The notes: a model not told the origin generated them from the sequence alone. Positions 27 to 27,676 are shown, numbered from the stretch's first letter. The stretch is 32,000 nucleotides of DNA from an uncultured bacterium (GCA_964565945.1 CAZMGY010000005.1:1-32000); one strand, 5' to 3'. A program made the numbers and translations.

Positions 27-1724
27 ATGGAAAAACTGGTTGAAGAGTTTGAAAAACTAGAGCAAGATCAACGAGAATCTTGGTTTAAGGATGTGGTGCA
101 AAAATTCAATAACAACCAACCACCTTGTTACCTTGGCAAAGCGCGTGTTTTGTACGATATTCTCTTTGAGGATAGCTTGCTCTTTTCATCGGAAATGACA
201 TTTGCTGGAAATATGCAAGCATTTATTAAAGATTATGTTAAGAAAAAAGTTCAACGATTTATTAAGGATAATCGGGCCTTAATTAAGGCAGGAGCATCGG
301 TTGCGCTGTATGGGGCTTTTTTTGAATTTCGCAACAAAGAGCTTAGGTGGGAAAGAATTAAGAGCGAGTTGCCTTTAGAATACGTACCGTTTATTTTAGC
401 TATGAGTGCTAGGGAAGAAGTTAGGGATATTCAAGCTCAAGACAAGAGTTTGAATCGCCACAACTATGAAGCCTATTTTGCGGATATGAGTGAAGCTGGG
501 ATAGGCTACCTTGTGCACGATGCTTATGACGCTAGGGCTATGATTTCTGATGAAATGGCACTTGATATAGAAGCTAGTGCGTCAGAGAGGATTCAAGCCA
601 TGGAAAACTATATAAGGGGGGTGTGGTTCATGTTGTCTGGAACGTTTAAAGATGGAGATATGTGGCCCACGCCGTTTATTCGAGGCGTAGTGCATCATCG
701 GTCGTGGATACTGGGAGAATTTTATAATGATTTGCAGAATAATTTTTTTAAGATTCTTCGTAGTGCTGAAGCTAGTTTAGATAATATTAAATGGATAAAC
801 GAAATTGATGTTGAGGATTTGTTTCGAAGAACCTTGATGCAAAATGAGTATGATGTAAGGATTGACGGAGGATCCTTTAGGGTGAAGCACCGTTTCGAGA
901 AAAAAGATTTAAGGCTTCTTAAAACAAAGCTTGGCGAGAATATAAGAGACGATAAATATTTGTCTCTTCGATTTGTGTTTGATTTACTGCCACCAGAATT
1001 ACCCATTCAGAAAATGGTCAAGAGGCAGTTAACTACAGAACGGCGTGGATTGTGGACTACTTTATTTCCGTCTGGGGTGATGGAGGCTGAGGATCCTATT
1101 GAGGTGTCTGTGAACTATCTTGATGATTCGGAGACTTTTGAAACTACGGGACTGCTAAGTCGAATTAAGCCTAAGGATATTCAGGCGGTTCGTTTTGATA
1201 ATTTAGAAGATATGAGAAGAGCGATCATGAGTGCTCTAAATAATCCCCGCAAAGAGGTTTTGGATCGATTACGGGATATTCTTGTTTATGCTCGAATAAC
1301 AGATTTGAATAATTCTTTTGATCTAAAGGTCGAGAAAGGTGGTGACAAATATAGTGTGAATATGCTTCCTTTTGCCGCTCCTGGTGAAAAACTTTTCGAT
1401 TTAGTTGAAGTTCCCGTGATCTATCAAAATCAGTCCTTGGTGACCCTTCCTTTGCAAGGATTTTTTGATGTTAAAGAGATTCAAAATAGCTTGATTCAGC
1501 TGATATCACCAAGGTTCAGAGAGAAGGTTTCATTTGATCTTTATGCTGTTTGGAAGCCTGCGTTAGATGGTGAAGAGGAGGCAAGTGTAAAGGTGGAGTT
1601 TGTCGAAAAATTGACCAAAGATAATCAAGATATTCTTTGGGGATGTAGGTGGACTGGGCTGGAAATGAGACCTAAACCTGGAAGGTTTTTTTCATTGTCA
1701 AATGAGATACTTAAAGCAGCTTAG
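27..1724 (+). CDS. Hypothetical protein (565 aa from first ATG), no recognisable domain; 5' end uncertain
   Basis: Long uninterrupted ORF. The frame stays open from position 3 up to the ATG at 27, so the gene may begin left of the window. I recognise no Walker, nuclease, signal-peptide or other motif. Its TAG stop (1722-1724) overlaps the stop of the convergent gene. Confidence 0.6.
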   Translation: MEKLVEEFEKLEQDQRESWFKDVVQKFNNNQPPCYLGKARVLYDILFEDSLLFSSEMTFAGNMQAFIKDYVKKKVQRFIKDNRALIKAGASVALYGAFFEFRNKELRWERIKSELPLEYVPFILAMSAREEVRDIQAQDKSLNRHNYEAYFADMSEAGIGYLVHDAYDARAMISDEMALDIEASASERIQAMENYIRGVWFMLSGTFKDGDMWPTPFIRGVVHHRSWILGEFYNDLQNNFFKILRSAEASLDNIKWINEIDVEDLFRRTLMQNEYDVRIDGGSFRVKHRFEKKDLRLLKTKLGENIRDDKYLSLRFVFDLLPPELPIQKMVKRQLTTERRGLWTTLFPSGVMEAEDPIEVSVNYLDDSETFETTGLLSRIKPKDIQAVRFDNLEDMRRAIMSALNNPRKEVLDRLRDILVYARITDLNNSFDLKVEKGGDKYSVNMLPFAAPGEKLFDLVEVPVIYQNQSLVTLPLQGFFDVKEIQNSLIQLISPRFREKVSFDLYAVWKPALDGEEEASVKVEFVEKLTKDNQDILWGCRWTGLEMRPKPGRFFSLSNEILKAA

Positions 1725-3964
1725 TTGTTTTCTTGAGATTGAATGCACAGCTCGAACCAGGTATCAAAGGCGCTGGTTTGCATAAAGTTTGTCCAGATAA
1801 ATCCAGTGAGATAATTTTCAATCATGAGCATGCTGAGGCCTTGGTTAATGCCGATGTACTTATTCGAAAACCAACTTTGGCTTAGGTTGAAGGAATCTCT
1901 AAATCCATAAAAACCATAAAGATGATTTTTGTAAGTGTCGTAGAAGTGACGTAGCGCTGGTAAAGAAATCTCGGGAGTGAGAGGTAAGGAACCTATAGCT
2001 GCCGAGGGCGAGAGTGTGCCATCGTGCAAATTAACCCCAGGTTTGGCGCCATAACCTTTGAATCCCTGTGGGCCACCACTTGCGGTAAGGCCCCACGCAT
2101 TTTCGCCATAACTGCGGTATTCTTTTTGGTGGTCGATGCAAAATTGGCGGTTGGCATAGGTGGCGGCAATGGTGTTAGTCCAATGGTTGAGACCATGATC
2201 ATTGATGTTTTTAAAATCAATAAAGAGATGTGGGTATTGGTACACAAATAAACTGCCAGTTTGTGAATAGACCATAGTGTAATCTTTGTAATTACCAAGA
2301 GGGCGTTTGACGTTTATCCAGTATTGCTTGGAAATGGGGTGGGTTGGCGAACCAATTGCAAGGACATAGGCCAAAAGACTTTCGTTGTAGGTGTGCCAGT
2401 AATAGGGTAAAAAGCCTAATTCGGGTTTCCATCCCATGGCTAGGCTCGACTTGCCGTTGGTCATCCATTCCCAGTCGATTCGTTCGTAGAGTCGTTGCGC
2501 AATATCACTGATTTCGGAATTTTTAAAGAATTGCCCAGCGGTGAGGGCGCCAGCGATAAACAGGGCTGTGTCCATCGAGGAGATTTCGGAACTCCATACA
2601 CGTTGACCTGTTTTAAGATCGACAAAGTGATAGTAAAAACCATTTTTGTGTTCCACAGTATTTTCGATGGTTTTGAGAGCTTTAAGTGTCATTTTGAAGG
2701 CCTCGTCGTAGTCGAGCCAACCTTTGTCGCTAGCAATGCAATAGGAGACTAAGGCGAAGCCTAAAGCCGAAATACTGGCGGGAGACTTGGGAGTACTGTT
2801 GTCTTTGACCAGGCCATTGTCTTTATTGATTTCGCCAGTGAAGTATTTAAAGGTATCATATTCGATTTTTTTCAAGAAATCGATACGGGTGTCACGCGAT
2901 GTTTTGGAGGCCTCTTGCACAACTTCACTTTGTTCGTTGTTGTGATAGAGATCGTAGTCGATCAGTTTAACACTTGTGATACTGGCGATTTCGGTGGGTA
3001 GTAGTGTTGTTTCTGATCCGTCAATAGTATTGAGGTTGACAATATCGTAATCGGTTTGGCTGAGTTTACCAATAAGGGTATTGGTGTTGTTGAGGGTTAC
3101 AATGTCGAGCGTATCATTTTCGTTGAGTTTGGCATAGTGTTGTGTGCCCAAAATGTGAATGCCGTAGTTCTTGTTTTGAAAGTTGAGCAATTGGTTGCGC
3201 GTGCTGCGTAGTTCCTGATTAAGATTTTCGATATTATCTTTGAGAAGCAAATTGCTTTTTTTAAGCTGATTGATCAGAGCTTCGATCTTTTCGTCAGTTT
3301 GATTGAGTGCAATGGTAGTGATTTCTTTTTTAAGTTTTGTCTGTGTTTTTTTCTCGCTTTCCAATTGACCTTTAAGAGTAATTTCTTTTTTCTTGAGTTG
3401 ACTCAGACTTTCTTGAGTTTTTACCTGAGATTGTTGCAGTTCGGAGATATTACCTTCGAGCGTTTTGTTCTGCTGAGAGGCATCCCAGTAATAAAAAGAG
3501 ATATAAGCACCAAAAGTGAGTAGCAGAAGAATGAGAATGGCTAATTCATAAGGTTTGCGCCGCAGTGAGTTGACATAGGCACAGAGGCGCTTGCGATCAT
3601 GTTCGATAATATCTTCGTATTGCACTCCAATCAAGACCGATTCGATGCCTTGATCTTTAATCACTTTATACCAAGCTTTTTGGGCAAAAGCTGCGATCGG
3701 GTGGCGCGAAAATGGGGGTGTGATCATAAGAGCCATACGGTATTGATTGCTATCCAAATAATCGTAAAAAGATTTTTGTGGAGAGTAGAGCTGTAGGCAA
3801 AGGCCTCCTTTGGAGATATCCCGCGTAAAACATTGGAGGGTCTTGCTTGCTGTTTGACTGGACTTTTTATCGACAAATCGTATCTCCACTGGAAAAACAG
3901 TGTTGACGCGTAGATACGTTCTTTGTTCATGTTCGGCAGGACGTTTTTTTTTGAATAAACCCAT
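1721..3964 (-). CDS. PilZ domain / single TM helix / coiled coil / GH144-like (DUF3131, putative beta-1,2-glucanase) fusion protein
   Basis: PilZ motifs RTYLR (RxxxR, 3908-3922) and DISKGG (DxSxxG, 3803-3820). Hydrophobic helix PYELAILILLLLTFGAYISFYYW (about 3484-3552). Next comes about 130 aa of heptad-like K/E/Q/L-rich sequence. The C-terminal ~390 aa carry strings typical of the GH144/DUF3131 family (NGFYYHFVDLKTGQ, YGFYGFRDSFN, GINQGLSMLMIENY). I prefer the ATG at 3964 (MGLFKKKRP): AAGGA lies 11 nt upstream and a TTGACA-17-CATAAT promoter precedes it. The track start at 4153 is a TTG followed by 63 aa of low-quality sequence. Confidence 0.8.
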   Translation of the reverse strand: MGLFKKKRPAEHEQRTYLRVNTVFPVEIRFVDKKSSQTASKTLQCFTRDISKGGLCLQLYSPQKSFYDYLDSNQYRMALMITPPFSRHPIAAFAQKAWYKVIKDQGIESVLIGVQYEDIIEHDRKRLCAYVNSLRRKPYELAILILLLLTFGAYISFYYWDASQQNKTLEGNISELQQSQVKTQESLSQLKKKEITLKGQLESEKKTQTKLKKEITTIALNQTDEKIEALINQLKKSNLLLKDNIENLNQELRSTRNQLLNFQNKNYGIHILGTQHYAKLNENDTLDIVTLNNTNTLIGKLSQTDYDIVNLNTIDGSETTLLPTEIASITSVKLIDYDLYHNNEQSEVVQEASKTSRDTRIDFLKKIEYDTFKYFTGEINKDNGLVKDNSTPKSPASISALGFALVSYCIASDKGWLDYDEAFKMTLKALKTIENTVEHKNGFYYHFVDLKTGQRVWSSEISSMDTALFIAGALTAGQFFKNSEISDIAQRLYERIDWEWMTNGKSSLAMGWKPELGFLPYYWHTYNESLLAYVLAIGSPTHPISKQYWINVKRPLGNYKDYTMVYSQTGSLFVYQYPHLFIDFKNINDHGLNHWTNTIAATYANRQFCIDHQKEYRSYGENAWGLTASGGPQGFKGYGAKPGVNLHDGTLSPSAAIGSLPLTPEISLPALRHFYDTYKNHLYGFYGFRDSFNLSQSWFSNKYIGINQGLSMLMIENYLTGFIWTNFMQTSAFDTWFELCIQSQENN

Positions 3965-3997: not shown

Positions 3998-4026
3998 ATT
4001 ATGGTCAAGACCTGGGAAATTGTCAA
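3998..4026 (-). promoter_or_regulatory. Sigma70-type promoter for the PilZ-glucanase gene
   Basis: On the minus strand: TTGACA (4021-4026), exactly 17 nt spacer, CATAAT (3998-4003). It lies about 35 nt upstream of the ATG at 3964. Confidence 0.5.
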
Positions 4027-4175: not shown

Positions 4176-7100
4176 ATGAAAAAGTCTTATGTGTTTTTAC
4201 TATTAATAGGTTTTGTTGCTCAATCCGCGATTCTGTTTCCTTTCGAACGTGAACAAGATATTCCACGCATTGTTCAAAATGAGCGTCAGCTTATGTTGCA
4301 TTTTATGCAAGGTAAGGGGTTTTTTAAAAATAGCAATTACGAACAGGCGAGAGAAGAATTTTTGCGTGTTATTCAAATCAATTCTGACTATCGCCCGGCC
4401 TATGAGTATTTAGAGAGAATTCAGGATATAGCGATCCAAAAATCGCAAGAGGAACAGGAACGTCGTGCCTATATGAATCGTGCCTTGGATATGATGGATA
4501 CGGTTAAAGAAAAATTACGTTTACCTTCAGATGAAGACTTGTTTTACCAACTCACTGAGTCGGAGCAAAAAAAGCTAGATGGTTATGTGGGTGACAATGA
4601 GTTTAGCAAAATGATCGAAGAGCAGCGTTTAACGGTGTTAAATAAAGCTAAGCAAATCAAAAAAGACATTGATAAAGTTCTTGAGGAAAGACAAAAATCC
4701 GATGTTATGCGTAATGTGGCTGGGCGGGACGAGGCTTTTATGGTTCAAGGGTTTGAGCCTTACACACGCGAAAATGCGACGATGAAAGAAAACGTAGAAA
4801 GGGTGGCCGAAGCGCAAGAAGAGATGGATGCCAATTTCTTTTTTAATCGACGTCAAAAAATCGAAAGCTTTTATCAACGTGGGGTTCAGGCCTACAAACT
4901 CAGAGATTATCCTTTGGCTAAGGATATGTTTGAAAAAGTTCTTAAGTTGGAGCCAGGCTATAGGTATGCACAAGATTATCACGAAAGTAGCACGTCTCAG
5001 CTAATGATTAAAGAAATTCAAGAGCGTAAAAATCGTAAATTGCTCAAAAGGGCGCGTAGAAATCGTAAGCCAAGGGTGCAGGAACCCATTGAAATTGTTT
5101 CTCAAAACCGGGCTCTTGAAGAAAGTTCTGCCGTGGCTGAGCAGATGAGTCAAGCTTTTGAAGAACGCAAGGGAGCCTTATTGACTGGACATCGCGATGA
5201 GCTGTTGGCTACAGGTATTAAAGCGATGGAGATGAAAGACTACAACAAAGCGATGGAGATTTTTGAACAAATCCTGCGTTATGACCCCAAAGACCGCAGT
5301 GCAGAAAAGTATCGTCAGAAAATTCTTGTTCATATCAGTGAGAAGGAAGAAGCTGTTTTAGAAGCTTTAAGTCAGGTTCAAAATATGGCATTTGAGGAGT
5401 CTATGTCTCCAGCGACGCCTAAGGTTGACTTGGACCCCAATGCGGATTTTCAAGCTAATGAAGCTTTGGTTGATGTTGTTGCCAAACAACGTCGTGTGGT
5501 TGAACTTTATGAGAAAGGAAAGCATTTTTATCGTCAAAAAAATTATACGGCTGCATTGCAGCATTTTCGAGAGTTGGAATTGCTTGACCCTGCACACCGT
5601 TATGTTAGAAAGTATATGCATCGGTGTGAGCATCTTCTCAATATAGGACGTAAGGAAGTACCTCGCTTAGATCCTGCCAAACTTTACGCTCAAGGTGTGA
5701 AGCATTTCAAAAATAAGGAGTATCGTTTGGCGGCTCGAAGATTCTGGGATGTCCTTAAATTGAATCCACAACATCGCAAAGCCCAAAAAATGTTAAAGAA
5801 AGCTCTTTCTCCACTAGATATGGGGATTAAGACTTTATTGTCCGAAATTTCTGCAGCTGAAGAGGTGCGTTCAAAACCTCAAGCCATTGAAGCTATGCCC
5901 GCACCGAAGTTACCCACAATTACAGGTGAAGAAGATCCTGAAACATTGTATGAAAAAGCTAAGCAGCTTTATCGTGCTGGAAAATACAAGCAAGTGATTC
6001 CTTTATTTGAAACTCTTGTGTCTTTATTGCCGAAGGATCCTCATGTGGAGCGCTTTTTAGAATTGAGTCGCAAAAAATTTGTTAAAGCAGGTGGTCAAGT
6101 AAAGGAAGTTGTGCCAGAGCTGGTTGCGAAATTCAAGTCGCAGGCAACTTCCGATCTGTCATTGGATCCTTCTAATAACCTTTCTGCAGCTAATGCTATT
6201 TCCCCAAAATTTACAGTGCATTACGAAAAAGGGAAAGCTTTGTTTCGTCAAGGTCAATACAAAGAAGCTATTCTGGAGTTTGAAAAAGCGGTTAAGTTGG
6301 TGCCCAATCATCGTTATGCGCCGCGTTATCTCCAACGTAGTAAAGAAAAAATGCAGGCTCAGGGCAAAGTGGCTGTTGCTTCTGCTCAAGAGATGTCCCC
6401 TCAAGACAAAGAATTCAAAACTAATTATGAAGAAGGCAAGTATTTGTATCGTCAAGGTCAATATGCTCAGGCGGAACCTTTTTTCGAAAAAGCTGTGGAA
6501 CTTAAACCGAATCATCGCTATGCCTCACGTTATTTAGAGCGTAACAAAGAAAAGCAGGCCGAAAAACAAGCGATTTCTCAACCTCTTGCATCCCCATCTC
6601 TTCCTGCAGCAGGCGTTGCGACACCACAAGCGGAAAAACAGTCTGTGAATGAAGAAACTTTTAACCGCTTTTATGAAGAGGGCAAGCGTTTGTATCGTCA
6701 AGGTCAATATGCTCAGGCGGGACCTTTTTTCGAAAAAGCTGTGGAACTTAAACCGAATCATCGCTATGCCTCACGTTATTTAGAGCGTAGCAAAGAAAAG
6801 CAGGCCGAAAAACAAGCGATTTCTCAACCTGTTGCATCCCCATCTCCTCCTACACCAGCCATTGCGATACCACAAGCGGAAAAACAATCTGTGAATGAAG
6901 AAACTTTTAACCGTTTTTATGAAGAGGGCAAGCGTTTATATCGTCAGGGAAACTATTTGGAAGCGATTGGTCAGTTTGAGGAAGCCGTTAAACTCAATTT
7001 CAATCATCGTTATGCGCCACGTTATCTTAAACGCAGTCGGGAAAAATGGGCCGAACGTCAAGAGGCTCAAAAAGAGCGTTTGGCCACAAGTGAAACGCAA

Positions 7101-10100
7101 GCCCCAGCTCCTGCTCAACAAGTTGTTACCGAGGAACAAAAAAATTCAAAAAAACTTTATGAGCAAGGCACGACGATGTATCGCGAGGGGCGTTACGCCG
7201 AAGCGTCCGATATTTTTGAACAAGTGGTGGCTCTTGAGCCTAATCATCTCTACGCGGGAGGTTATTTACTTCGTTCCAAAGAAAAAGTTTCTGCAGCTGA
7301 GTCGCGAGCTCAAGGAGCCTCGAATCCTATTGTTGTAACCGCTCTTACCAAATCTAGCCCTGCGTCTTCAGATGTCGCTGAAGATTCTGCCCGTTTGTAT
7401 GAACAAGGAAAAACAGATTTTCGTCAAGAAAATTACAAAGGGGCTATAGAAAAATTCAAGAGAGTGGTACTGCTTGACCCTAATCATCGCTATGTCAGGC
7501 GTTATTTGAAAAAATCGGAAGAGCGTTTTGCTGAGCAAAAAAAGAATGATGTTCAAACGGCTCTTTACCAAGATAAGCAGACAGATGGGGTTGCCTTAGG
7601 TCAAAAAGAGCGCTTCACTGCTGGAGAAGGTGTTTTGGAGTTTAGGGTTAATCGTAATGTAGGCATTATTGAGTTAAGTCAGGAAGCTGCAGAAATTTTA
7701 GAGTTTCGTTCTACGCAAAATAAATTTGTTCGGGTTGTTGGAAAAGAAGACTTTGAGGCAGAAGAAGATCTGATGATGTTTGAACGAGAGACGTCTATGG
7801 AAGATTATGTTGAAGAGCCTGGTGAGCATGTCGATATTGTTTTGGCCGAAGGCGATAAAAAGGTAGCTATGAAAGAAGCCAGAAAGCGCGTTAGGGCTGT
7901 TGATGTTCCTGTGGTTGCTAAACGTGCTAAACAAAAAGTTCTGAAAAAATCGAACCGTAAGAGTCGTAAGGCTTATTTTAGCGGTCTTAAGCTTTATAAG
8001 CGTTGCAACTACAAGAGGGCGGCCATTGAATTTGACAAGGCTGTGGCTTTTGATGAGGACAATTCCCTTGCTCAAAGATATTTGGTTTTGTCGTCACAAG
8101 AACTTAAGAAAAAAGGTATCACATTTAAGTCGGAATATTTGCCAGAGAATTTATCTAAGGTGGTTCAGTTTAAACAACCTTCTGTCGAAGAGGTTAAGTC
8201 AGTTTTTGAAGACGCTAAGCCTATTATGGAGAGGGTGCCTATATCCACCGACGGATCGCAAGATAATTATGAAGTTGTGAAAACCGTTCAGATGACAGAT
8301 CCTGCGGTTTTAATTAAACGTAAGCAGCAGCGTGAAAATGTGAAGAAAATATACACCAAAGGTGTCGAGGCTTACGAAGCTAAAGACTATGAAACGGCTC
8401 TTGTTCTATTTGAGCAATCCAGTGTTATGGCGCCTAAGAATAAGAGCGTGCTTAAAGCTCTAAGGTTAACGAAACAGAAACTTAGTGCTGCTGCCAAAGC
8501 CAAACAGATGGCTACCCAAAGAGAAGAGGAGAAAAAAGTTTCTCAAAAGATAGATGTGATTTATGTTCGGGCGAAAGAACTCTTTCGGGAGAAAAAATAT
8601 CAAGAGGCCTATGTGATTTTTAAAGATGTGATTGCTCAGGATCCTAAGCATTATTTTGCTCAAAAATATTTTGTTAAATCTAGGGAAGAATTAATTGCTT
8701 TAGGCGTTGATCCAGAAAAAAAATCAATAGCCATGCATCAAAAAGCTTTATTGACGGAAGAAGCGGATATGGCGTCACGCTTGTTCGAAAAGGGTAAACG
8801 CAACTTCGAAAAAAAGTTGTACGAAAGAGCGGTTAAAGAGTTTTATGTGGTTAAGTTGATGCAACCTGATCATCGTCACACGTGCAAATATTTGAATCGA
8901 AGCGTGAAACATATTGAACTTAGCCGTTGGATGGATATGAAAGATAATTTGGATGAGAATTTCAAAAAAAGTCCCTACTATGCCACCCAAAGGGAGGGAT
9001 ATGCTCTGAGTCGGAGTGATCAAAAAAATATCGACTCTTTCATCACCAAAGGCTTAAGACATTATCGTAGGCAAGAGTTTGAGAAAGCTTTGCTGTTTTT
9101 TGATAAAGCGAGAGATATAGATCCTTATTATGGTGAGTTGTCGATTTGGAAGACTAATGCAAGATATTTGTTAGATATATTGGAACATAAAATCAATGGT
9201 GAAATGGAGCAGGTTAAGGTTAAGTCCGAATTTGTTCTTAAAACAGATCCCGACAATGCATTAGCGAAGAAATATGCCACTTTAGGTGAGTTGGAGCTTC
9301 AGTTTTATAAGGATGAGCATAAAGTGTTAAATCAATTTCAAGAAGAGTTGCGTCAGCTTAAAAACAAAAGAACGAGGCAAGAAAAATTAGTTCGAGCGTT
9401 TCAAGAAGCTAAAATTTTACATGAAAAAGGACGTTATATGGAAGCTTTAAATGGGTTTGAAGACGTTTTGGCACAGGATCCTACGAATACTTACGCGATG
9501 ACATTTGCGAAATATGCGCGTCAGAGAATTCAGGAAAAGAAGAAGCTAGAGTTAGAAATGCGTAAAGTCGAAGAGTTGCAACGAGCTGTTGAAATTCAAC
9601 AGGAAGTCAAAGTGTATGATTACTATGAAAGAGTGGAGCAGGCACAGGCAGGTATGGCGATTGTGGCCACAGGTGAAATTCCTATAAAGCAGCCTCTGGA
9701 CACAAACCCTGATGCCGTAGAGAAAATGACAGCATCAGAAAAAGCGCAGGCCTTTGTCGATAAAGGAAAAAGTGCTTACTTGCGTGGAGAATATGATAAG
9801 TCAGTTGCTTTGCTAGAAAAAGCAATTGAGATGGATGATGGAGCTAATCGTGACGAAATTCAGATATATTTGGAGCAATCAATTAAAAAACGTGAATGTC
9901 AAAAAGTTCCTTTTATATCTCCACGCGAACTGACCGAAGAAGAAAAGCAAATTATGTTGCGCAATGAATTGATGAGAAAAGGACGTTCTTTGTTCTACCG
10001 AAATAAGTATGAGTTGGCGATCACTCAATTTGAAAAAGTTTTGGGCGTCGAACCTGGATTTGAGATGGCTCAGAAGTACATGGAGTTGGTGAATAAGAAA

Positions 10101-11060
10101 CTGGAAATTAAGCGCAAGCAAGAATTGGAGCGTTTGCAACAGTCTGTTTATGCTGATGAAATGTCGACGATGTTACAGCAAGAGAAGAGGATTGTTATGC
10201 TTTTGGAAAAAGGCAAAGAGTTTTTTGTTCAGGATCAATATCGTTTGGCACGTGAGCATTTTGAAAAAGTGCTCGAACTTCAAGAAGATCATGTGATTGC
10301 ACGCGATTATTTGTATTTAACTGAGGAAAAGTTAGTTAAACGAGCAATGATGGAGGAAAAACACTTAGCAGAGATGCAGTTGTTAAAAATTCGCGAAGAG
10401 CGTGAGGAACGTATTCACTTGGCTAAACAGGCTAAAGAAAAAGTGCGCCTCCAAGAATTAAAAAAGCAAGTGCAAGAAATCGATAGGTTGTTTGGTGAAG
10501 GTAAGGTGGCTTACGAAAAAGGGGAGGTTCAGGTGGCTATCGTTTATTTTGAAAAAATTCTCCAAATTAATTCTAAACATAGACTTGCTTTTGAATATTT
10601 GAATTTGGCAAGACAAAGCTTGCGAACTTTGCAAAGGAACGAATTGAAACAGGTTAATCGTGAAAAACAAGAAGTCTTTCAAAAAGAAGCGGAAAAGTAC
10701 ACAAATGTCCAATTGGCTTACGATAAAGGCCTTATTTATTACAATCGGGGTGAATACGGTCGTGCTTTAGCTTTGTTTAAACGGGTGTGGATGTTAGATC
10801 AAACATTTCCTTATTTGACAAAAGTCCAGGAATATATAGAAAATATCTCTCAACGAAAAATGTTGGCGAACACATCCTCTCCGAATCAGAATTATTTAGC
10901 AGAGTTGTACGAGAATGGTAAGGATAAGTTTATTGCGGGTCAATGGCAAGAGGCTTTTTCGACTTTTCAAAGTGTTTCTAATATTGATGCTCATTACAAA
11001 TCTGTTCAAATGTATCTGCAAGTGGCCCAAGGTGAAATTCAGAAGGCCAGAGCGGCCTAA
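4176..11060 (+). CDS. Giant secreted TPR-like repeat protein (2294 aa, about 24 repeat units)
   Basis: N-terminal signal peptide MKKSYVFLLLIGFVAQSA. By eye, about 24 copies of a ~45-aa unit with consensus [LF]YExGKxxYRxxxYxxAxxxFExVLxLxPxHRYAxxYLxRSxEK. Each unit is one TPR hairpin plus a third helix. Units are joined by K/E/Q-rich or P/A/S-rich linkers. A non-repeat insert sits at about 7546-7975. Confidence 0.85.
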   Translation: MKKSYVFLLLIGFVAQSAILFPFEREQDIPRIVQNERQLMLHFMQGKGFFKNSNYEQAREEFLRVIQINSDYRPAYEYLERIQDIAIQKSQEEQERRAYMNRALDMMDTVKEKLRLPSDEDLFYQLTESEQKKLDGYVGDNEFSKMIEEQRLTVLNKAKQIKKDIDKVLEERQKSDVMRNVAGRDEAFMVQGFEPYTRENATMKENVERVAEAQEEMDANFFFNRRQKIESFYQRGVQAYKLRDYPLAKDMFEKVLKLEPGYRYAQDYHESSTSQLMIKEIQERKNRKLLKRARRNRKPRVQEPIEIVSQNRALEESSAVAEQMSQAFEERKGALLTGHRDELLATGIKAMEMKDYNKAMEIFEQILRYDPKDRSAEKYRQKILVHISEKEEAVLEALSQVQNMAFEESMSPATPKVDLDPNADFQANEALVDVVAKQRRVVELYEKGKHFYRQKNYTAALQHFRELELLDPAHRYVRKYMHRCEHLLNIGRKEVPRLDPAKLYAQGVKHFKNKEYRLAARRFWDVLKLNPQHRKAQKMLKKALSPLDMGIKTLLSEISAAEEVRSKPQAIEAMPAPKLPTITGEEDPETLYEKAKQLYRAGKYKQVIPLFETLVSLLPKDPHVERFLELSRKKFVKAGGQVKEVVPELVAKFKSQATSDLSLDPSNNLSAANAISPKFTVHYEKGKALFRQGQYKEAILEFEKAVKLVPNHRYAPRYLQRSKEKMQAQGKVAVASAQEMSPQDKEFKTNYEEGKYLYRQGQYAQAEPFFEKAVELKPNHRYASRYLERNKEKQAEKQAISQPLASPSLPAAGVATPQAEKQSVNEETFNRFYEEGKRLYRQGQYAQAGPFFEKAVELKPNHRYASRYLERSKEKQAEKQAISQPVASPSPPTPAIAIPQAEKQSVNEETFNRFYEEGKRLYRQGNYLEAIGQFEEAVKLNFNHRYAPRYLKRSREKWAERQEAQKERLATSETQAPAPAQQVVTEEQKNSKKLYEQGTTMYREGRYAEASDIFEQVVALEPNHLYAGGYLLRSKEKVSAAESRAQGASNPIVVTALTKSSPASSDVAEDSARLYEQGKTDFRQENYKGAIEKFKRVVLLDPNHRYVRRYLKKSEERFAEQKKNDVQTALYQDKQTDGVALGQKERFTAGEGVLEFRVNRNVGIIELSQEAAEILEFRSTQNKFVRVVGKEDFEAEEDLMMFERETSMEDYVEEPGEHVDIVLAEGDKKVAMKEARKRVRAVDVPVVAKRAKQKVLKKSNRKSRKAYFSGLKLYKRCNYKRAAIEFDKAVAFDEDNSLAQRYLVLSSQELKKKGITFKSEYLPENLSKVVQFKQPSVEEVKSVFEDAKPIMERVPISTDGSQDNYEVVKTVQMTDPAVLIKRKQQRENVKKIYTKGVEAYEAKDYETALVLFEQSSVMAPKNKSVLKALRLTKQKLSAAAKAKQMATQREEEKKVSQKIDVIYVRAKELFREKKYQEAYVIFKDVIAQDPKHYFAQKYFVKSREELIALGVDPEKKSIAMHQKALLTEEADMASRLFEKGKRNFEKKLYERAVKEFYVVKLMQPDHRHTCKYLNRSVKHIELSRWMDMKDNLDENFKKSPYYATQREGYALSRSDQKNIDSFITKGLRHYRRQEFEKALLFFDKARDIDPYYGELSIWKTNARYLLDILEHKINGEMEQVKVKSEFVLKTDPDNALAKKYATLGELELQFYKDEHKVLNQFQEELRQLKNKRTRQEKLVRAFQEAKILHEKGRYMEALNGFEDVLAQDPTNTYAMTFAKYARQRIQEKKKLELEMRKVEELQRAVEIQQEVKVYDYYERVEQAQAGMAIVATGEIPIKQPLDTNPDAVEKMTASEKAQAFVDKGKSAYLRGEYDKSVALLEKAIEMDDGANRDEIQIYLEQSIKKRECQKVPFISPRELTEEEKQIMLRNELMRKGRSLFYRNKYELAITQFEKVLGVEPGFEMAQKYMELVNKKLEIKRKQELERLQQSVYADEMSTMLQQEKRIVMLLEKGKEFFVQDQYRLAREHFEKVLELQEDHVIARDYLYLTEEKLVKRAMMEEKHLAEMQLLKIREEREERIHLAKQAKEKVRLQELKKQVQEIDRLFGEGKVAYEKGEVQVAIVYFEKILQINSKHRLAFEYLNLARQSLRTLQRNELKQVNREKQEVFQKEAEKYTNVQLAYDKGLIYYNRGEYGRALALFKRVWMLDQTFPYLTKVQEYIENISQRKMLANTSSPNQNYLAELYENGKDKFIAGQWQEAFSTFQSVSNIDAHYKSVQMYLQVAQGEIQKARAA
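6426..6950 (+). repeat. In-frame 246-bp (82-aa) tandem repeat, about 2.1 copies, roughly 95% identical
   Basis: TATGAAGA(A/G)GGCAAG recurs at 6426, 6672 and 6918, exactly 246 bp apart. Copies 1 and 2 differ at only a handful of positions, mostly in the P/A/S linker. Copy 3 diverges after about 6950. Confidence 0.9.
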
Positions 11061-11077: not shown

Positions 11078-13345
11078 GTGAAAAAAATCATTGTTTGGGG
11101 AGTACCCCTTCTTTGTGTACCTTCTATAGCTGTGTTTGCACAAAATGTTATAACAACAGGTGTTGTTGATATTTTCCAAAAACAGTCTATAGTCTCTTCC
11201 GAGTTTAAAAAAGCGGAGGACTTTTTTGAGGAGGGCAAAAGGCTTTATAACGAGAAATCTTATGGCTTTGCGATCAAAATGTTTCAAAAAGCTTTAGCCT
11301 TAGACCTTACGCATACGACAGCTCAGAAATACATTCAGTTATGCGAGCAAAATATTGCTTGGCAAGAGCAAGAGTCTCTGGCTTTGTTAGATATAAAGCG
11401 TAAGGAAGAGGAATTAAATCGTCATAAAAAATTAGAATCTTGGTTGGAGAGTGGGATTCACCATTACAAATTGAAGAAGTATGATCTTGCGCTGATTGAG
11501 TTTGAAAAAGTTCTTAAATTTAAGCCCAATCACACCGTGGCGAAAAAATATATAGATGAAACTAAAAGAAAACTCAATGTTTTGGGATTGCAGCAGATAT
11601 CCGAGATTTCGAAACGTGAACGCCTGGATCAAATGATTGCCAAAGAAAAGAAAATTGAACAATTGGGGCAAAGAGGGATTGATTTGGTTAAACAACGTCA
11701 ATTTGAATTGGCCTTGAACACTTTTAAAGATCTTGTGATGTTAGATCCTCATAATACTTGGGCGCAGGAGTATATCGACCTTTGTGAACAATGTTTAGAT
11801 TGGGAAACCAAAGAAAAAAAAATGCAGCTAGAGCTCGATCGTAAATATGTTTTGAACGAAGAGCGACAACGCACGGAGTTGTTGCAAAAGGCGCAAGCTT
11901 TTTTTGAGGAAGGTAAAGGGGCTTTTAAAGAGAAACGGTACCAAGAGGCGCTTGAGTTATTCCAAAAATCATTGGATTTTAATGTTGAGCATGAGTTGGC
12001 TCACAACTACCATAAGTTAACCTCCAAAATTATAGAAGAAAAACACTTGAGTGACTTAAGATACTTTAATCAAGTTAAAGAAAGTGCCACACGTGAGATA
12101 CATTTGGATCAGATGATGCAAACACATCTTGAGAACGAAAAGATGCTTGAACGCGGTCAAAAGCTTTTTAATGAACAAAAATTTTATCCGGCCTTAGAGT
12201 TCTTTCGTAATGTGGCCAAACGTTATTCCGAAAATAAAATGGTTCACGATTATATTCGTTTATGTGAGAAATCGATTGAATATAACCGTAAAAAAATTAA
12301 GGCCCAAGCTGATATGGCTCAAGTTTTGCTAAGGTACAAAAATATTGAGTATAATTTGAACCAAGGAAAAATGATGCACGAACAGGGTAAGTACGAGGTG
12401 AGCACCGAGCTTATGAAAAAGGTGCTTCAAGATGTACCTAATCATGCCTTAGCACTTAAATGCATTGAGCTGAACTATAAGTGCCTGGAGCTAGATAAAG
12501 AGCGTGAGAAAGTTCAGCTAGAGCAAAAAGAGTGGATGTTGCAAGAAAAAGAAAAAATGCTCGAAGATCAAAAGAATAGCGGCTTTATTGAACAGAATAT
12601 TAGCAAAGGTATGGCCTTTTTCGAATCTAAGCAATACCATCTAGCTTCGCAACGGTTTGAGGTTGTGTTAAGTAAAGTGCCTGACCATCGTGTGGCTCAA
12701 GAGTATTTTAAGTTATGTGAACGTTACTTGGTGATTAAAGAGAATAAGCATCTAGAAAAAATTGCCCAAGTTAAAAATAGTCTAGAGCAAAAAAGTTTAG
12801 CCTATTTTAATGATGGTAAAGAATTGTTTGCTCAAAACAAATATCGGGAAGCTATTCAGAAGTTTTCTAAAGCATGGGAGTTAAGTCCAGATGCCGCTAT
12901 AATGACGGAGCTTCAGACATATGTCGAGAAATCTTTTAAGCAACTTGAGCTAATGAAACAAAGGAAAAAAAAGGTGGAGAATGAGAAAAAACAACGCCAA
13001 TACACGGATCTTTACCGTCAAGGTGTGGTGTTGTTTGAAACAAAGAATTACCAGGGAGCTATCGCTTATTTTCGCAAAGCCTTGGCTCTTTCTCCCAAAA
13101 TGAAAGACGGAGCTCTCAAGGGCTACATCGAGAAGTCGTACAAAGGGATTGATGAAGAGAAAAAACATGAACAACGCAAAAAGCTAGCGATCAAATATCG
13201 ACAAGGTATGGATTCTTATCGTTCAGAAAAATGGGAAGACGCTTTGAAATACTTTAGCGAAGTTCACATTGTTGATCCTAAATTCGAAGATGTACGGCTT
13301 TATCTTAAGCTTGCTCAGAAGCAAATAGAAGCCTCTCAAGAGTAG
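11078..13345 (+). CDS. Secreted TPR-like repeat protein, paralog of the giant upstream gene (755 aa, about 10 units)
   Basis: GTG start preceded by AAGGAGGAGGA (11067-11077), 17 nt after the upstream stop, so probably one operon. Signal peptide MKKIIVWGVPLLCVPSIAVFA. The repeat unit is the same, but the third helix often reads Y[IF]xLCExx (YIQLCEQNI, YIDLCEQCL, YIRLCEKSI, YFKLCERYL). Confidence 0.85.
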   Translation: MKKIIVWGVPLLCVPSIAVFAQNVITTGVVDIFQKQSIVSSEFKKAEDFFEEGKRLYNEKSYGFAIKMFQKALALDLTHTTAQKYIQLCEQNIAWQEQESLALLDIKRKEEELNRHKKLESWLESGIHHYKLKKYDLALIEFEKVLKFKPNHTVAKKYIDETKRKLNVLGLQQISEISKRERLDQMIAKEKKIEQLGQRGIDLVKQRQFELALNTFKDLVMLDPHNTWAQEYIDLCEQCLDWETKEKKMQLELDRKYVLNEERQRTELLQKAQAFFEEGKGAFKEKRYQEALELFQKSLDFNVEHELAHNYHKLTSKIIEEKHLSDLRYFNQVKESATREIHLDQMMQTHLENEKMLERGQKLFNEQKFYPALEFFRNVAKRYSENKMVHDYIRLCEKSIEYNRKKIKAQADMAQVLLRYKNIEYNLNQGKMMHEQGKYEVSTELMKKVLQDVPNHALALKCIELNYKCLELDKEREKVQLEQKEWMLQEKEKMLEDQKNSGFIEQNISKGMAFFESKQYHLASQRFEVVLSKVPDHRVAQEYFKLCERYLVIKENKHLEKIAQVKNSLEQKSLAYFNDGKELFAQNKYREAIQKFSKAWELSPDAAIMTELQTYVEKSFKQLELMKQRKKKVENEKKQRQYTDLYRQGVVLFETKNYQGAIAYFRKALALSPKMKDGALKGYIEKSYKGIDEEKKHEQRKKLAIKYRQGMDSYRSEKWEDALKYFSEVHIVDPKFEDVRLYLKLAQKQIEASQE

Positions 13346-13773: not shown

Positions 13774-13848
13774 CGGGGCGTAGCGCAGCTTGGTTAGCGC
13801 GCCTGCCTTGGGAGCAGGAGGTCTCCAGTTCGAATCTGGGCGCCCCGA
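13774..13848 (+). tRNA. tRNA-Pro (anticodon TGG)
   Basis: Hand-folded cloverleaf. Acceptor CGGGGCG/CGCCCCG, D arm GCGC-AGCTTGGTTA-GCGC, anticodon arm CCTGC-CTTGGGA-GCAGG, T arm TCCAG-TTCGAAT-CTGGG. 75 nt, CCA not encoded. Confidence 0.9.
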
Positions 13849-13914
13849 TAAAAATTTTTTGCGTGTGCAATAACACAAATAAGGCCGAGGCTTTAGTTAG
13901 GTATTTTGTGTTGC

Positions 13915-13954
13915 TAGCTTAGCTGGATAGAGCAATGGATTTCTAATCCGTAGG
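13915..13954 (+). pseudogene. Partial copy of tRNA-Arg(TCT), D arm and anticodon arm only
   Basis: TAGCTTAGCTGGATAGAGCAATGGATTTCTAATCCGTAGG matches positions 8 to about 47 of the intact tRNA-Arg 96 nt downstream with 4 mismatches in 40 nt. No T arm (no GGTTCGAATCC) and no complementary acceptor 3' strand follow. Confidence 0.6.
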
Positions 13955-14010
13955 ATTCTTTAGAGGAACGAAGCCGTAAGATAAGCACTGCCTAGGAAGA
14001 GAAAGATTTT

Positions 14011-14084: not shown

Positions 14085-14107
14085 CTATAGAATTAAAAGT
14101 GATTTGT

Positions 14108-27252: not shown

Positions 27253-27313
27253 TCCAACGCAGTATAGGCGTGTCTAAGCGAGGCCCTTTCGGGTAACAAT
27301 AAGGATGAGACCT

Positions 27314-27676
27314 ATGAAAGAAAAAAGAGAGTATCCTCGAGTTCGTGGTGATTTGGAATGGTTATTTGTGGTTCAGATTACAGCTGAACACAGTTCTGTG
27401 ATTACGGAGACAAAAGATATTAGTTGTTCTGGAATCAAATGTTGTGTTGATGATTTTTTTCCCGAAAATAAAGAAGTCGAGATTGTGTTGCTTTTGCCTC
27501 TGACAGAAAAAGGACTCATTTTCGAAAAGGTTAAATGCCAGGCTAAAACCATTCGTTGCGTGGGTGTCCGTAAAGAAAACAAAAACGCTTACGCAACAGC
27601 TTTTAGTTTTATTGATCTTAAAGACGCGGATCGAAAAAAAATTGATCAGTATGTTATGCATGCTCAAGAAATCTAA
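27314..27676 (+). CDS. Stand-alone PilZ domain protein (c-di-GMP receptor family)
   Basis: REYPR (RxxxR) and DISCSG (DxSxxG, 27416-27433). I prefer the ATG at 27314 because AAGGA (27301-27305) is spaced 8 nt upstream of it. The track start at 27305 overlaps that AAGGA directly. Confidence 0.85.
   Translation: MKEKREYPRVRGDLEWLFVVQITAEHSSVITETKDISCSGIKCCVDDFFPENKEVEIVLLLPLTEKGLIFEKVKCQAKTIRCVGVRKENKNAYATAFSFIDLKDADRKKIDQYVMHAQEI

What the first reader, a model, noticed from the sequence alone, without database searches (positions are those of the whole stretch)
1721..3964. PilZ domain fused through one transmembrane helix and a coiled coil to a GH144-like glycoside hydrolase
Both c-di-GMP binding motifs are intact (RTYLR, DISKGG) on the predicted cytoplasmic side. 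Next come a single TM helix and about 130 aa of coiled coil. The predicted periplasmic domain carries GH144/DUF3131 signature strings (YGFYGFRDSFN, GINQGLSMLMIENY). I do not know of a characterised case of a cytoplasmic second-messenger receptor wired directly to a periplasmic hydrolase. It implies inside-out signalling through the coiled coil.
Basis: partly seen in the sequence, partly recalled or inferred. Interest (0 to 1): 0.68.

Follow-up and report, generated by a model that had tools for sequence, protein, structure and literature searches.

The report
Membrane-tethered PilZ–GH144 beta-1,2-glucanase fusion
The gene encodes a membrane protein with a cyclic-di-GMP-sensor domain (PilZ) inside the cell joined through one membrane helix and a helical stalk to a sugar-cutting enzyme (a GH144 beta-1,2-glucanase) outside it, and it belongs to a large unstudied family that couples the same sensor module to many different glycosidase-type domains.

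Summary
Window 3964..1721 (minus strand) encodes a 747-aa protein:
- a PilZ barrel with intact RTYLR and DISKGG motifs
- one TM helix (aa 141-160)
- a GH144 domain with the known catalytic residues conserved, closest to the characterised Xanthomonas beta-1,2-glucanase XcSGL.

The charge distribution, the lack of a signal peptide, and signal peptides on the closest GH144-only relatives all place PilZ in the cytoplasm and GH144 in the periplasm.

New here: the PilZ-TM-coiled-coil module defines a family of at least 468 clusters at 50% identity. It occurs mostly in Candidatus Omnitrophota and other PVC-group MAGs. Its periplasmic end carries GH144, DUF3131, GH2/GH5-like, GH26 or GH42-like domains, or most often an unannotated (alpha/alpha)6 barrel. 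The c-di-GMP-contacting positions are the most conserved columns in the family.

Best explanation: a c-di-GMP receptor that controls, or places, a periplasmic glucanase, comparable to Alg44 or LapD. Ligand binding, enzyme activity and transmembrane coupling are all untested, and no diguanylate cyclase could be looked for. I found no published description of this fusion. I rate it a new variant of a known kind.

The parts
1721..3964 (-). Whole CDS, 747 aa plus stop codon: the PilZ-TM-coiled coil-beta domain-GH144 protein.
   Evidence: ORF list. The start is supported by homologue N-termini and by the promoter-like site. Coordinates verified.
3998..4026 (-). Sigma-70-like promoter candidate, TTGACA-17-CATAAT (11/12 match), about 34 nt upstream of the ATG.
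   Evidence: This is a consensus match only; the total number of sites in the region is no higher than in shuffled sequence.
3572..3928 (-). PilZ domain, aa 13-131: a beta-barrel at aa 25-119 followed by the start of the C-terminal helix.
   Evidence: Pfam 21.0 bits against a 22.5-bit cutoff. AF2 pLDDT about 80-92. Foldseek hits to MrkH, MotI, PlzA and YcgR PilZ structures. The family matches PilZ in 63 of 71 members.
3908..3922 (-). RxxxR motif (RTYLR, aa 15-19), lying in a low-confidence and probably flexible N-terminal arm.
   Evidence: R15 is conserved in 70 of 71 and R19 in 71 of 71 family members. pLDDT is below 50 for aa 1-19.
3803..3820 (-). D/NxSxxG motif (DISKGG, aa 49-54).
   Evidence: Across the family, D/N49 is present in 71 of 71, S51 in 49 of 71 and G54 in 71 of 71 members.
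3485..3544 (-). Single transmembrane helix, aa 141-160 (LAILILLLLTFGAYISFYYW).
   Evidence: It is the only Kyte-Doolittle 19-residue window above 1.6. Flanking charges are +4/-1 on the N side and +1/-3 on the C side. AF2 models it as part of one continuous helix, aa 121-216.
3179..3484 (-). Coiled-coil stalk, aa 161-262, in two segments (about 161-216 and 226-262) with a break at about 217-225.
   Evidence: Heptad analysis gives z=3.9. AF2 models helices at aa 121-216 and 226-260. The segment contains no proline and is rich in E, K, Q, L and N.
2945..3172 (-). Small beta-rich domain, aa 265-340, of unknown fold.
   Evidence: AF2 gives 6-7 strands but pLDDT of only about 57. A similar sequence motif occurs in family members with other catalytic domains, L011_+0 and L024_+0. 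There is no Pfam match.
1760..2878 (-). GH144 (alpha/alpha)6 catalytic domain, aa 363-735.
   Evidence: PF10091 at 6e-69. PDB 8xul XcSGL at 2.6e-69 and 5gzh CpSGL at 2.7e-48. AF2 pLDDT 94-99. Foldseek TM 0.82 and rmsd 1.8 A to 8xul.
2381..2383 (-). E528, which aligns with the general acid XcSGL E239 and CpSGL E211.
   Evidence: Alignment mapping. E is present in 27 of 28 aligned GH144 sequences. The residue roles come from PMC12102758.
2570..2572 (-). D465, which aligns with the candidate general base CpSGL E142 and XcSGL D171.
   Evidence: The residue role comes from PMC12102758 section 3.3. The Bugula-associated homologue P0004 has N at this position.
27305..27676 (+). Separate stand-alone PilZ gene, 123 aa, with REYPR and DISCSG motifs. 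It shows that the same genome encodes a second canonical PilZ receptor.
   Evidence: Pfam PilZ at 34.9 bits, above the cutoff. Translation.
4176..11060 (+). Divergently transcribed giant TPR protein, 2294 aa, with a hydrophobic signal-peptide-like N-terminus; a possible periplasmic partner or scaffold. A functional link is not shown.
   Evidence: TPR matches along the whole length. The divergent arrangement is conserved in L002, with 43% identity over 1155 aa, but not in L001.

Best explanation
The protein is an inner-membrane-anchored, probably oligomeric endo-beta-1,2-glucanase whose cytoplasmic end is a c-di-GMP receptor.

Shown:
- The N-terminal domain has a PilZ fold with both ligand-contacting motifs.
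- Its C-terminal helix runs without interruption into the single TM helix and on into a heptad-repeat stalk.
- The stalk carries a small beta domain and then a GH144 domain with the catalytic acid, the candidate base and the substrate-stacking residues of characterised beta-1,2-glucanases.

Inferred:
- c-di-GMP binds the RxxxR arm and the DxSxxG site.
- Binding changes PilZ packing or dimerisation.
- That change passes along the continuous helix and coiled coil, or acts through a recruited membrane partner.
- It thereby alters the activity, oligomeric state or position of the periplasmic glucanase.
- The cell would in this way link second-messenger level to trimming or turnover of periplasmic or envelope beta-1,2-glucan, such as OPG-like or cyclic glucan.

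The same PilZ-TM-coiled-coil module is joined to many other glycosidase-type domains in PVC-group bacteria. It therefore behaves as a portable cytoplasmic control handle for periplasmic carbohydrate-active enzymes.
For: - Domain identities.
- Topology: one TM helix with positive-inside flanks and no N-terminal hydrophobic segment. The closest GH144-only relatives, P0005 and P0006, begin with signal-peptide-like sequences, so that enzyme clade works outside the cytoplasm.
- Catalytic residues E528, D465, F573, Y638 and I706 align with XcSGL E239, D171, F286, Y367 and I453 (residue roles from PMC12102758).
- Selection on the sensor: the PilZ domain is conserved almost as well as the GH144 domain among orthologues (56-70% against 66-73% identity), while the coiled coil is less conserved at 37-53%.
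- Across 71 long family members, R15, R19, D/N49 and G54 are conserved in 70 to 71 of 71.
- Modularity: a profile of the PilZ+TM region finds 468 clusters (197 at E<=1e-10), always matching at the N-terminus. C-terminal domains vary: GH144, DUF3131, GH2_C-like, GH26, GH42-like, and an (alpha/alpha)6 barrel resembling MmpH, GH76 and epimerases.
- The gene is present in all four known members of the window's lineage.
- A second, stand-alone canonical PilZ gene lies in the window, and another lies next to the orthologue in the Bugula-associated PVC bacterium. This implies that a PilZ ligand exists in these cells.
- AF2 models aa 121-216 as one continuous helix spanning the PilZ C-terminal helix, the TM segment and the stalk.
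Against: - No binding or enzyme assay exists for any family member.
- No diguanylate cyclase or phosphodiesterase could be sought in this genome. None was seen in the 474 kb of DNA fetched, which is too little to be informative.
- The Pfam PilZ score is just below the gathering threshold, and a 5-sequence profile of the PilZ-TM module (A1) does not hit any PilZ chain in the PDB by sequence.
- No beta-1,2-glucan synthase (Cgs or OpgH) lies near the gene; the neighbours are mostly housekeeping genes, so the substrate's existence in this organism is unproven.
- One orthologue, P0004, has D465N at the candidate base, so catalysis may not be essential to the protein's role.
- The stalk has a conserved break, and AF2 confidence there is low (pLDDT 41-60), so a rigid transmission path is not established.
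Confidence: 0.5

Rival explanations
1. Alg44-like scaffold. The PilZ domain binds c-di-GMP, but its output is a cytoplasmic or inner-membrane partner, such as a glycosyltransferase or synthase, rather than the fused enzyme. The TM helix and stalk simply hold a constitutively active GH144 domain in the periplasm as the trimming or clearing hydrolase of a trans-envelope polysaccharide machine, combining the roles of Alg44 with those of AlgL, BcsZ or PslG.
For: - Alg44 has the same N-terminal PilZ, single TM helix and periplasmic domain layout, and it acts on Alg8 (10.1101/814665; PMC4436075 listed).
- Synthase-dependent exopolysaccharide systems (alginate, cellulose, Pel, PNAG) generally include a periplasmic hydrolase or lyase and TPR scaffold proteins; this rests on general knowledge.
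- A giant signal-peptide-bearing TPR protein is a conserved divergent neighbour in two of three contexts.
- In Omnitrophota the family sits in conserved gene strings, either with a glycosidase-like gene and an 872-aa protein with only a sub-threshold Pfam outer-membrane beta-barrel match (E=0.009) (L003), or with a GH94 phosphorylase (L017).
- The D465N change in P0004 suggests that a role other than catalysis is conserved.
Against: - No glycosyltransferase or synthase gene lies next to the gene in the window, L001 or L002.
- The TPR neighbour is absent from L001.
- The repeated swapping of only the periplasmic catalytic domain behind an unchanged PilZ-TM-stalk is explained more simply if the module acts on whatever is fused to it.
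Confidence: 0.3
2. The PilZ domain no longer signals with c-di-GMP. It is a structural, dimerisation or localisation domain, or binds a different ligand, and the protein is simply a membrane-tethered beta-1,2-glucanase in a lineage that may lack c-di-GMP.
For: - The Pfam score is sub-threshold.
- No cyclase was found in the available sequence.
- Non-binding PilZ domains are known among stand-alone proteins (10.1101/814665).
- The organism belongs to a poorly known, possibly host-associated PVC lineage, since its relative comes from a bryozoan.
Against: - The ligand-contacting residues are the best-conserved positions in the whole family.
- Galperin and Chou report that PilZ domains in fusion proteins invariably keep c-di-GMP binding.
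- Two further stand-alone PilZ genes with intact motifs occur in this lineage.
Confidence: 0.12
3. The C-terminal domain is not a beta-1,2-glucan hydrolase in vivo. It could be a transglycosylase or cyclase, as the GH189 domain of Cgs is, or a glucan-binding sensor, or it could act on a different glycan.
For: - The GH144 reaction mechanism is not fully resolved, and related (alpha/alpha)6 families include transglycosylases (PMC12102758 and PMC10901819).
- N707 replaces CpSGL D400, and P0004 has D465N.
- No glucan synthase lies nearby.
Against: - The closest structural and sequence relatives are all GH144 hydrolases, at 34% identity to XcSGL.
- The acid, the candidate base and the stacking residues are conserved.
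- The CpSGL D400 mutant keeps sufficient activity.
- The GH189 and Cgs domains are far more distant, at 14% identity.
Confidence: 0.08

Closest known systems
Alg44 (Pseudomonas aeruginosa alginate co-polymerase)
   Same: N-terminal cytoplasmic canonical PilZ, then a single TM helix, then a periplasmic domain. c-di-GMP binding in the cytoplasm governs a process involving envelope polysaccharide. The PilZ C-terminal helix is involved in dimerisation.
   Different: The periplasmic part of Alg44 is a non-catalytic membrane-fusion-protein (HlyD-like) domain, and its output is activation of the synthase Alg8. Here the periplasmic part is a coiled coil, a beta domain and a glycoside hydrolase, and no synthase is nearby. 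Alg44 was not among the top 50 Foldseek PilZ hits listed.
LapD/LapG inside-out signalling (Pseudomonas fluorescens)
   Same: Cytoplasmic c-di-GMP binding is relayed across the inner membrane through helical elements to control a periplasmic hydrolase.
   Different: LapD senses c-di-GMP with a degenerate EAL domain and relays through a HAMP domain. The hydrolase, LapG, is a separate protease that LapD sequesters rather than a fused glycosidase.
GH144 endo-beta-1,2-glucanases XcSGL (XCC2207, PDB 8xul) and CpSGL (PDB 5gzh)
   Same: The same (alpha/alpha)6 fold: TM 0.82 and rmsd 1.8 A to XcSGL, with 34% identity. The general acid, the candidate base and residues F286, Y367 and I453 are conserved.
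   Different: The characterised enzymes are soluble secreted or periplasmic proteins of about 430-540 aa with signal peptides. None has a cytoplasmic sensor, a TM anchor or a stalk.
BcsA (cellulose synthase) PilZ fusion
   Same: A PilZ domain fused in cis to a carbohydrate-active enzyme, giving direct allosteric control by c-di-GMP.
   Different: In BcsA the PilZ domain is C-terminal, sits on the same (cytoplasmic) side as the glycosyltransferase domain, and gates it directly. No signal crosses the membrane, and the enzyme synthesises rather than degrades.
OpgD/OpgG (GH186) periplasmic beta-1,2-glucanases of E. coli
   Same: Periplasmic beta-1,2-glucan-cleaving enzymes thought to tune the chain length of osmoregulated periplasmic glucan. 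This is a plausible physiological analogue.
   Different: They have an unrelated fold and family, are soluble, and have no second-messenger domain.

Membership tests
PilZ domain (PF07238), canonical c-di-GMP-binding type | Significant match to the family profile. | tested here: inconclusive
   The protein scores 21.0 bits against a gathering cutoff of 22.5, E=4.5e-4. Homologues sharing the same module pass the cutoff, for example P0036 at 35 bits, and 63 of 71 family members match at E<=1e-3.
PilZ domain (PF07238), canonical c-di-GMP-binding type | RxxxR and (D/N)xSxxG motifs with about 30 residues between them. | tested here: met
   R15-T-Y-L-R19 and D49-I-S-K-G-G54 are present. They are conserved in the orthologues and across the family.
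PilZ domain (PF07238), canonical c-di-GMP-binding type | Six-stranded beta-barrel followed by a C-terminal alpha-helix. | tested here: met
   AF2 gives strands over aa 25-119 and a helix from aa 121, with pLDDT 80-92. Foldseek hits 5kec, 5vx6, 7mie and 5y6g (TMt 0.63).
PilZ domain (PF07238), canonical c-di-GMP-binding type | Binds c-di-GMP. | not testable with these tools
   This needs ITC, DRaCALA or MST on the purified domain.
GH144 (endo-beta-1,2-glucanase; Pfam PF10091) | Sequence membership. | tested here: met
   PF10091 at 232 bits, E=6e-69. phmmer against GH144 structures gives 8xul at 2.6e-69 and 5gzh at 2.7e-48.
GH144 (endo-beta-1,2-glucanase; Pfam PF10091) | (alpha/alpha)6-barrel fold superposable on CpSGL and XcSGL. 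| tested here: met
   pLDDT 94-99. Foldseek E=3e-33, TMt 0.82 and rmsd 1.8 A to 8xul.
GH144 (endo-beta-1,2-glucanase; Pfam PF10091) | General acid Glu (CpSGL E211, XcSGL E239) and an acidic residue at CpSGL E142, plus clan-conserved Phe and Tyr. | tested here: met
   E528, D465, F573 and Y638 align to these residues (roles from PMC12102758). CpSGL D135 and D139 are not matched, but they are not conserved within the clan either.
GH144 (endo-beta-1,2-glucanase; Pfam PF10091) | Hydrolyses beta-1,2-glucan with inversion of configuration. | not testable with these tools
   This needs an enzyme assay on linear or cyclic beta-1,2-glucan.
Alg44-type PilZ-TM-periplasmic co-polymerase | Periplasmic membrane-fusion-protein (HlyD-like) domain and a partner synthase in the same operon. 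| tested here: not met
   There is no HlyD or MFP Pfam match, and no glycosyltransferase lies in the neighbourhood. The protein shares the topology of Alg44 but is not a family member.
   There is no PF11329 hit for this protein at E<=0.1. Only the distant family member P0086 hits it.

The most novel reading that the evidence does not exclude
The PilZ-TM-coiled-coil unit is a previously unrecognised, portable inside-out transducer. Cytoplasmic c-di-GMP would directly switch the activity of whichever periplasmic glycosidase is fused to it. This would give Omnitrophota and other PVC bacteria post-translational second-messenger control of polysaccharide degradation in cis and across the membrane. 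In this lineage it would link c-di-GMP to beta-1,2-glucan turnover.
Probability: 0.3. Interest if true: 0.8.

Novelty: new variant of a known kind. Interest (0 to 1): 0.62.

Why it matters
c-di-GMP is known to switch polysaccharide synthesis on through BcsA, Alg44, PelD and PgaCD. A receptor fused in cis to a periplasmic degrading enzyme would be the complementary case: second-messenger control of polysaccharide hydrolysis across the membrane.

The same sensor-anchor-stalk module is joined to at least six kinds of carbohydrate-active domain in hundreds of sequence clusters. It therefore offers a natural set of chimeras for studying how a signal travels outward through a single-pass helix and coiled coil.

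It would also provide a first functional clue to c-di-GMP signalling and beta-1,2-glucan biology in Omnitrophota and related PVC lineages, which are essentially uncultured.

The module could be useful in practice as a ligand-controlled anchor for displaying enzymes in the periplasm.

Tried and rejected
- A word-index homology search with the 172-aa N-terminal fragment returned nothing, not even the protein itself. It was replaced by a full HMMER profile search.
- A 5-sequence profile of the N-terminal module against PDB sequences hit only a TM peptide and no PilZ chain. Fold comparison was needed instead.
- Looking up the window's own contig by exact protein sequence found no record.
- The metagenome scan with the full protein recovered only GH144-only relatives and no further fusions.
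- A regex search for GGDEF in all fetched DNA (474 kb) gave one chance match in a beta-clamp-like ORF. This says nothing about whether cyclases are present.
- Pfam on the isolated beta domain gave no credible match.
- The flanking proteins of unknown function (565 aa and 732 aa) have no Pfam or PDB sequence relatives, so they add no functional context.
- I rejected the longer TTG start at 4153. Homologues do not share the extra 63 residues, and the promoter-like site lies inside that extension.
- I rejected GH162, GH189, GH192, GH193 and GH194 as the family assignment. The fold matches to their solved members are much weaker, at 13-18% identity against 26-34% for GH144.
- dN/dS was not attempted. 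Orthologues are only 55-65% identical at the protein level, so synonymous sites would be saturated.

Full report
**1. What is in the sequence**

The finding's coordinates are right. An ORF on the minus strand ends with its stop codon at 1721-1723. The N-termini of three homologues align with it. An 11/12 match to TTGACA-17-CATAAT also lies at 4026-3998 on the same strand, inside the hypothetical extension. The product is 747 aa.

**2. Domain by domain**

- **PilZ.** Pfam PilZ (PF07238) matches aa 13-131 at 21.0 bits, just under the 22.5-bit gathering score. That alone would be borderline. RTYLR (aa 15-19) and DISKGG (aa 49-54) are the two c-di-GMP-contacting motifs, and their spacing is canonical. 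AlphaFold2 models a beta-barrel over aa 25-119 at pLDDT about 80-92. It is preceded by a low-confidence arm that carries RxxxR and followed by a helix, which is the canonical PilZ layout. Although the whole 747-aa model was the query, Foldseek still returned the PilZ structures MrkH, MotI, PlzA and the c-di-GMP complex of YcgR-PilZ, the last at TM 0.63 normalised to the target.
- **TM helix.** There is one hydrophobic segment, aa 141-160. Flanking charges are +4/-1 on the N side and +1/-3 on the C side, and there is no N-terminal signal-like segment.
- **Coiled coil.** A heptad pattern runs in one register over about aa 162-224 and in another over about aa 218-266. It scores z=3.9 against composition-preserving shuffles. 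AF2 gives helices at aa 121-216 and 226-260. The coiled coil is therefore about 100 aa in two segments, not 130 aa. AF2 models the PilZ C-terminal helix, the TM segment and the first stalk segment as one continuous helix.
- **GH144.** Pfam PF10091 scores E=6e-69. The best solved relative is 8xul, XCC2207 (XcSGL), a biochemically characterised GH144 endo-beta-1,2-glucanase (E=2.6e-69; identity of the enzyme from PMC12102758). The model has pLDDT 94-99 and superposes on 8xul with rmsd 1.8 A and TM 0.82.
- **Catalytic residues.** I mapped the residues discussed in PMC12102758 through the HMMER alignments:

| This protein | XcSGL | CpSGL | Role |
|---|---|---|---|
| E528 | E239 | E211 | general acid |
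| D465 | D171 | E142 | most plausible general base |
| F573 | F286 | – | conserved Phe close to the potential nucleophilic water |
| Y638 | Y367 | – | conserved Tyr stacking on the glucose at subsite -3 |
| I706 | I453 | – | hydrophobic residue beneath the glucose at subsite -1 |
| N707 | – | D400 | mutation of D400 retains sufficient activity |

  The domain looks catalytically competent.
- **Naming.** DUF3131 is PF11329, a separate family that does not hit this protein.

**3. Topology**

With a single TM helix the two ends must lie on opposite sides of the membrane. Four observations give the orientation:
- the positive-inside distribution of flanking charges
- the absence of a signal peptide
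- the fact that c-di-GMP is a cytoplasmic ligand
- the closest GH144-only relatives (P0005 at 52% and P0006 at 48% identity), which start with signal-peptide-like sequences.

All four point to PilZ inside and GH144 in the periplasm. This is a prediction, not a measurement.

**4. Relatives and the organism**

Only three other full-length homologues appeared among 5.8 billion clustered proteins, at 65, 63 and 55% identity. The last is from 'PVC group bacterium (ex Bugula neritina AB1)'.

The window's glutamyl-tRNA synthetase shows a matching pattern: relatives at 78, 66 (the same Bugula-associated bacterium) and 61% identity, then a drop to 50% or less. The window therefore comes from a small, deep PVC-group lineage with four sampled members, and each member seems to carry this gene.

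Within these orthologues the PilZ domain (56-70% identity) is conserved nearly as well as the catalytic domain (66-73%). Both are better conserved than the coiled coil (37-53%).

The Bugula-associated orthologue has N instead of D at position 465. The corresponding D-to-N mutants of two other clan members lost more than 99.9% of their activity.

**5. The larger family (the main addition to the finding)**

A profile of the PilZ+TM region (alignment A1) was searched with HMMER against 1.84 billion representative proteins. It found 468 clusters at E<=1e-3 and 197 at E<=1e-10. The match was always at the N-terminus, and many of the proteins are 620-750 aa long.

Of the 154 best members, 150 have RxxxR, and nearly all of the long ones have one hydrophobic segment at about aa 125-160.

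In an alignment of 71 long members the ligand-contacting positions are the most conserved columns: R15 in 70 of 71, R19 in 71 of 71, D/N49 in 71 of 71 and G54 in 71 of 71.

The C-terminal domains differ:
- GH144: this lineage, plus P0037 at 47% identity and the distant P0058
- DUF3131: P0086
- a GH2_C/GH5-like TIM barrel: five members
- GH26: two members
- GH42-like: one member
- in 53 of 75 long members, an unannotated domain.

I modelled the unannotated domain from P0036 (pLDDT 88.6). It is an (alpha/alpha)6 barrel closest to the methylmannose-polysaccharide hydrolase MmpH, to GH76 and to cellobiose 2-epimerases.

A scan of one genome per GTDB species placed the module almost entirely in Candidatus Omnitrophota MAGs. 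Some of these are labelled Planctomycetia, and Auribacterota and UBP3 also appear.

The called start of P0036 cuts off its RxxxR motif. An upstream in-frame TTG restores RQYVR.

The short beta domain also recurs behind the coiled coil in members with other catalytic domains.

**6. Genomic context**

In the window the gene is convergent with a 565-aa protein of unknown function. It is divergent from a 2294-aa TPR protein with a hydrophobic, signal-peptide-like N-terminus, which is followed by a second TPR protein of 755 aa. The divergent giant-TPR arrangement recurs in L002, with 43% identity over 1155 aa. It does not recur in the Bugula-associated genome. There, a 118-aa stand-alone PilZ gene with intact motifs lies immediately upstream instead.

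The window also has its own stand-alone PilZ gene at 27305-27676 (34.9 bits; REYPR and DISCSG motifs). The other neighbours are mostly housekeeping genes: def, fmt, rsmB, DAHP synthase, Mla components, radA, ispF and gltX. No glycosyltransferase, Cgs, OpgH or GGDEF gene is visible, but only 32 kb could be examined.

In Omnitrophota the GH2_C-type members sit in a conserved string after genes that, judged by eye from their translations, look like nagA, glmS, rsmI and lpxA; these were not scanned against Pfam. Some toroid-type members precede a GH94 phosphorylase. Others sit between a GH2-like gene and a large protein with only a sub-threshold Pfam outer-membrane beta-barrel match (OMP_b-brl, E=0.009).

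**7. How it most likely works**

*Shown.* The protein has a PilZ fold with intact motifs, one TM helix, a heptad stalk that AF2 models as continuous with the PilZ C-terminal helix, and a GH144 domain with catalytic residues in place. Selection is strong on the ligand-contacting residues across a family in which only the periplasmic enzyme changes.

*Inferred.* c-di-GMP binds in the cytoplasm and alters the arrangement of PilZ and its C-terminal helix. In Alg44 that helix mediates dimerisation (10.1101/814665). The change then reaches the periplasmic enzyme in one of two ways. It may travel through the helix and coiled coil, which would be cis inside-out control and is my preferred reading at about 0.5. 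Or it may act by recruiting or releasing a membrane partner, which is the Alg44-like reading at about 0.3.

The likely substrate is periplasmic or envelope beta-1,2-glucan. The physiological analogue is chain-length control of osmoregulated periplasmic glucan by OpgD in E. coli (cited in PMC12102758).

*Less likely.* The PilZ domain may have lost c-di-GMP signalling (about 0.12). The domain may not hydrolyse beta-1,2-glucan in vivo (about 0.08).

**8. Comparison with what is known**

By function the protein resembles Alg44 (same topology, non-catalytic periplasmic domain), LapD/LapG (c-di-GMP inside-out control of a separate periplasmic protease; PMC3032545, listed) and BcsA (cis control of a carbohydrate enzyme on the same side of the membrane).

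By membership:
- It is a GH144 protein on sequence, fold and catalytic residues.
- It is a canonical-type PilZ protein on motifs and fold, with a borderline profile score.
- It is not an Alg44-family member, because it has no MFP domain and no adjacent synthase.

Full-text searches combining PilZ with GH144, glycoside or glycosyl hydrolase, domain architectures and periplasmic glucans found no description of a PilZ-glycosidase fusion. A separate search pairing Omnitrophota with c-di-GMP, and two surveys of PilZ diversity, also gave none. The held library is incomplete, so this is absence of evidence only.

**9. Verdict**

The principle is known: a cytoplasmic c-di-GMP receptor coupled to a periplasmic function. 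The output is new, namely a glycoside hydrolase fused in cis, and so is the existence of a large modular family built on it. I rate this a new variant of a known kind, with interest 0.62.

The decisive unknowns are c-di-GMP binding, glucanase activity, whether the ligand changes the enzyme with no other protein present, and whether the genome encodes diguanylate cyclases and a beta-1,2-glucan synthase.

Noticed in passing
window 27305-27676 (+): A stand-alone 123-aa PilZ protein with intact REYPR and DISCSG motifs (Pfam 34.9 bits). It overlaps the annotated-length start of the next ORF (27564-28103, CxxCxxCC domain from aa 52), whose true start is probably further downstream.
   Followed up: partly
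window 4176-11060 (+) and 11078-13345 (+): Two consecutive TPR proteins of 2294 aa and 755 aa with hydrophobic, signal-peptide-like N-termini, made of many copies of a repeat of about 70-100 aa. The giant one is conserved as the divergent neighbour of the PilZ-GH144 gene in L002 (43% identity over 1155 aa).
   Followed up: partly
L003 1344-1385: The called start of P0036 (ATG at 1383) truncates its PilZ domain. An in-frame TTG at 1344 restores an RQYVR motif. Gene calls in this family may systematically lose the RxxxR arm.
   Followed up: partly
P0004 (L001 10001-12241), residue aligned to window D465: The orthologue from the Bugula neritina-associated PVC bacterium has Asn at the candidate general-base position (SSMNTAIF). 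The equivalent D-to-N mutants of related glucanases are nearly inactive, so this copy may be catalytically impaired.
   Followed up: no
L007-L016 (Omnitrophota loci): A strongly conserved gene order runs through nagA-like (366 aa), glmS (609 aa), rsmI (230 aa) and lpxA (266 aa) genes and then the PilZ-TM-coiled coil-GH2_C-like protein (about 700 aa). This suggests a link to amino-sugar or envelope metabolism.
   Followed up: partly
L017, L019, L020: PilZ-TM-coiled coil-(alpha/alpha)6 proteins are followed by a 1074-aa protein with no Pfam match. In L017 and L019 an ORF of about 810 aa comes next; the L017 copy is a GH94 phosphorylase, and the L019 copy was not scanned. This hints at a glucan or oligosaccharide utilisation unit.
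   Followed up: partly
window 13774-14185 and 15677-15766: A tRNA cluster (Pro-TGG, Arg-TCT and His-GTG on the plus strand; Ser-GCT on the minus strand) flanks what look like gene remnants. One is a vsr-like very-short-patch endonuclease fragment (14333-14581, minus strand). The other is a transposase-like fragment (14647-15069, plus strand). This may be a decayed mobile-element insertion site.
   Followed up: no
window ~28820-32000 (+): A long ORF runs off the 3' end of the window (more than 1060 aa). It appears to contain two nucleotidyltransferase-like repeats resembling GlnE (glutamine synthetase adenylyltransferase). This was judged by eye only.
   Followed up: no
window 1-32000: GC skew is positive in every 1-kb bin across the whole window (cumulative skew rises steadily to 6.2), even though genes lie on both strands.
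   Followed up: no
window 27-1724 (+) and 18676-20874 (-): Two large ORFs (565 aa and 732 aa) have no Pfam, NCBIfam or PDB sequence relatives. The 565-aa ORF is convergent with the PilZ-GH144 gene and overlaps its stop codon.
   Followed up: partly
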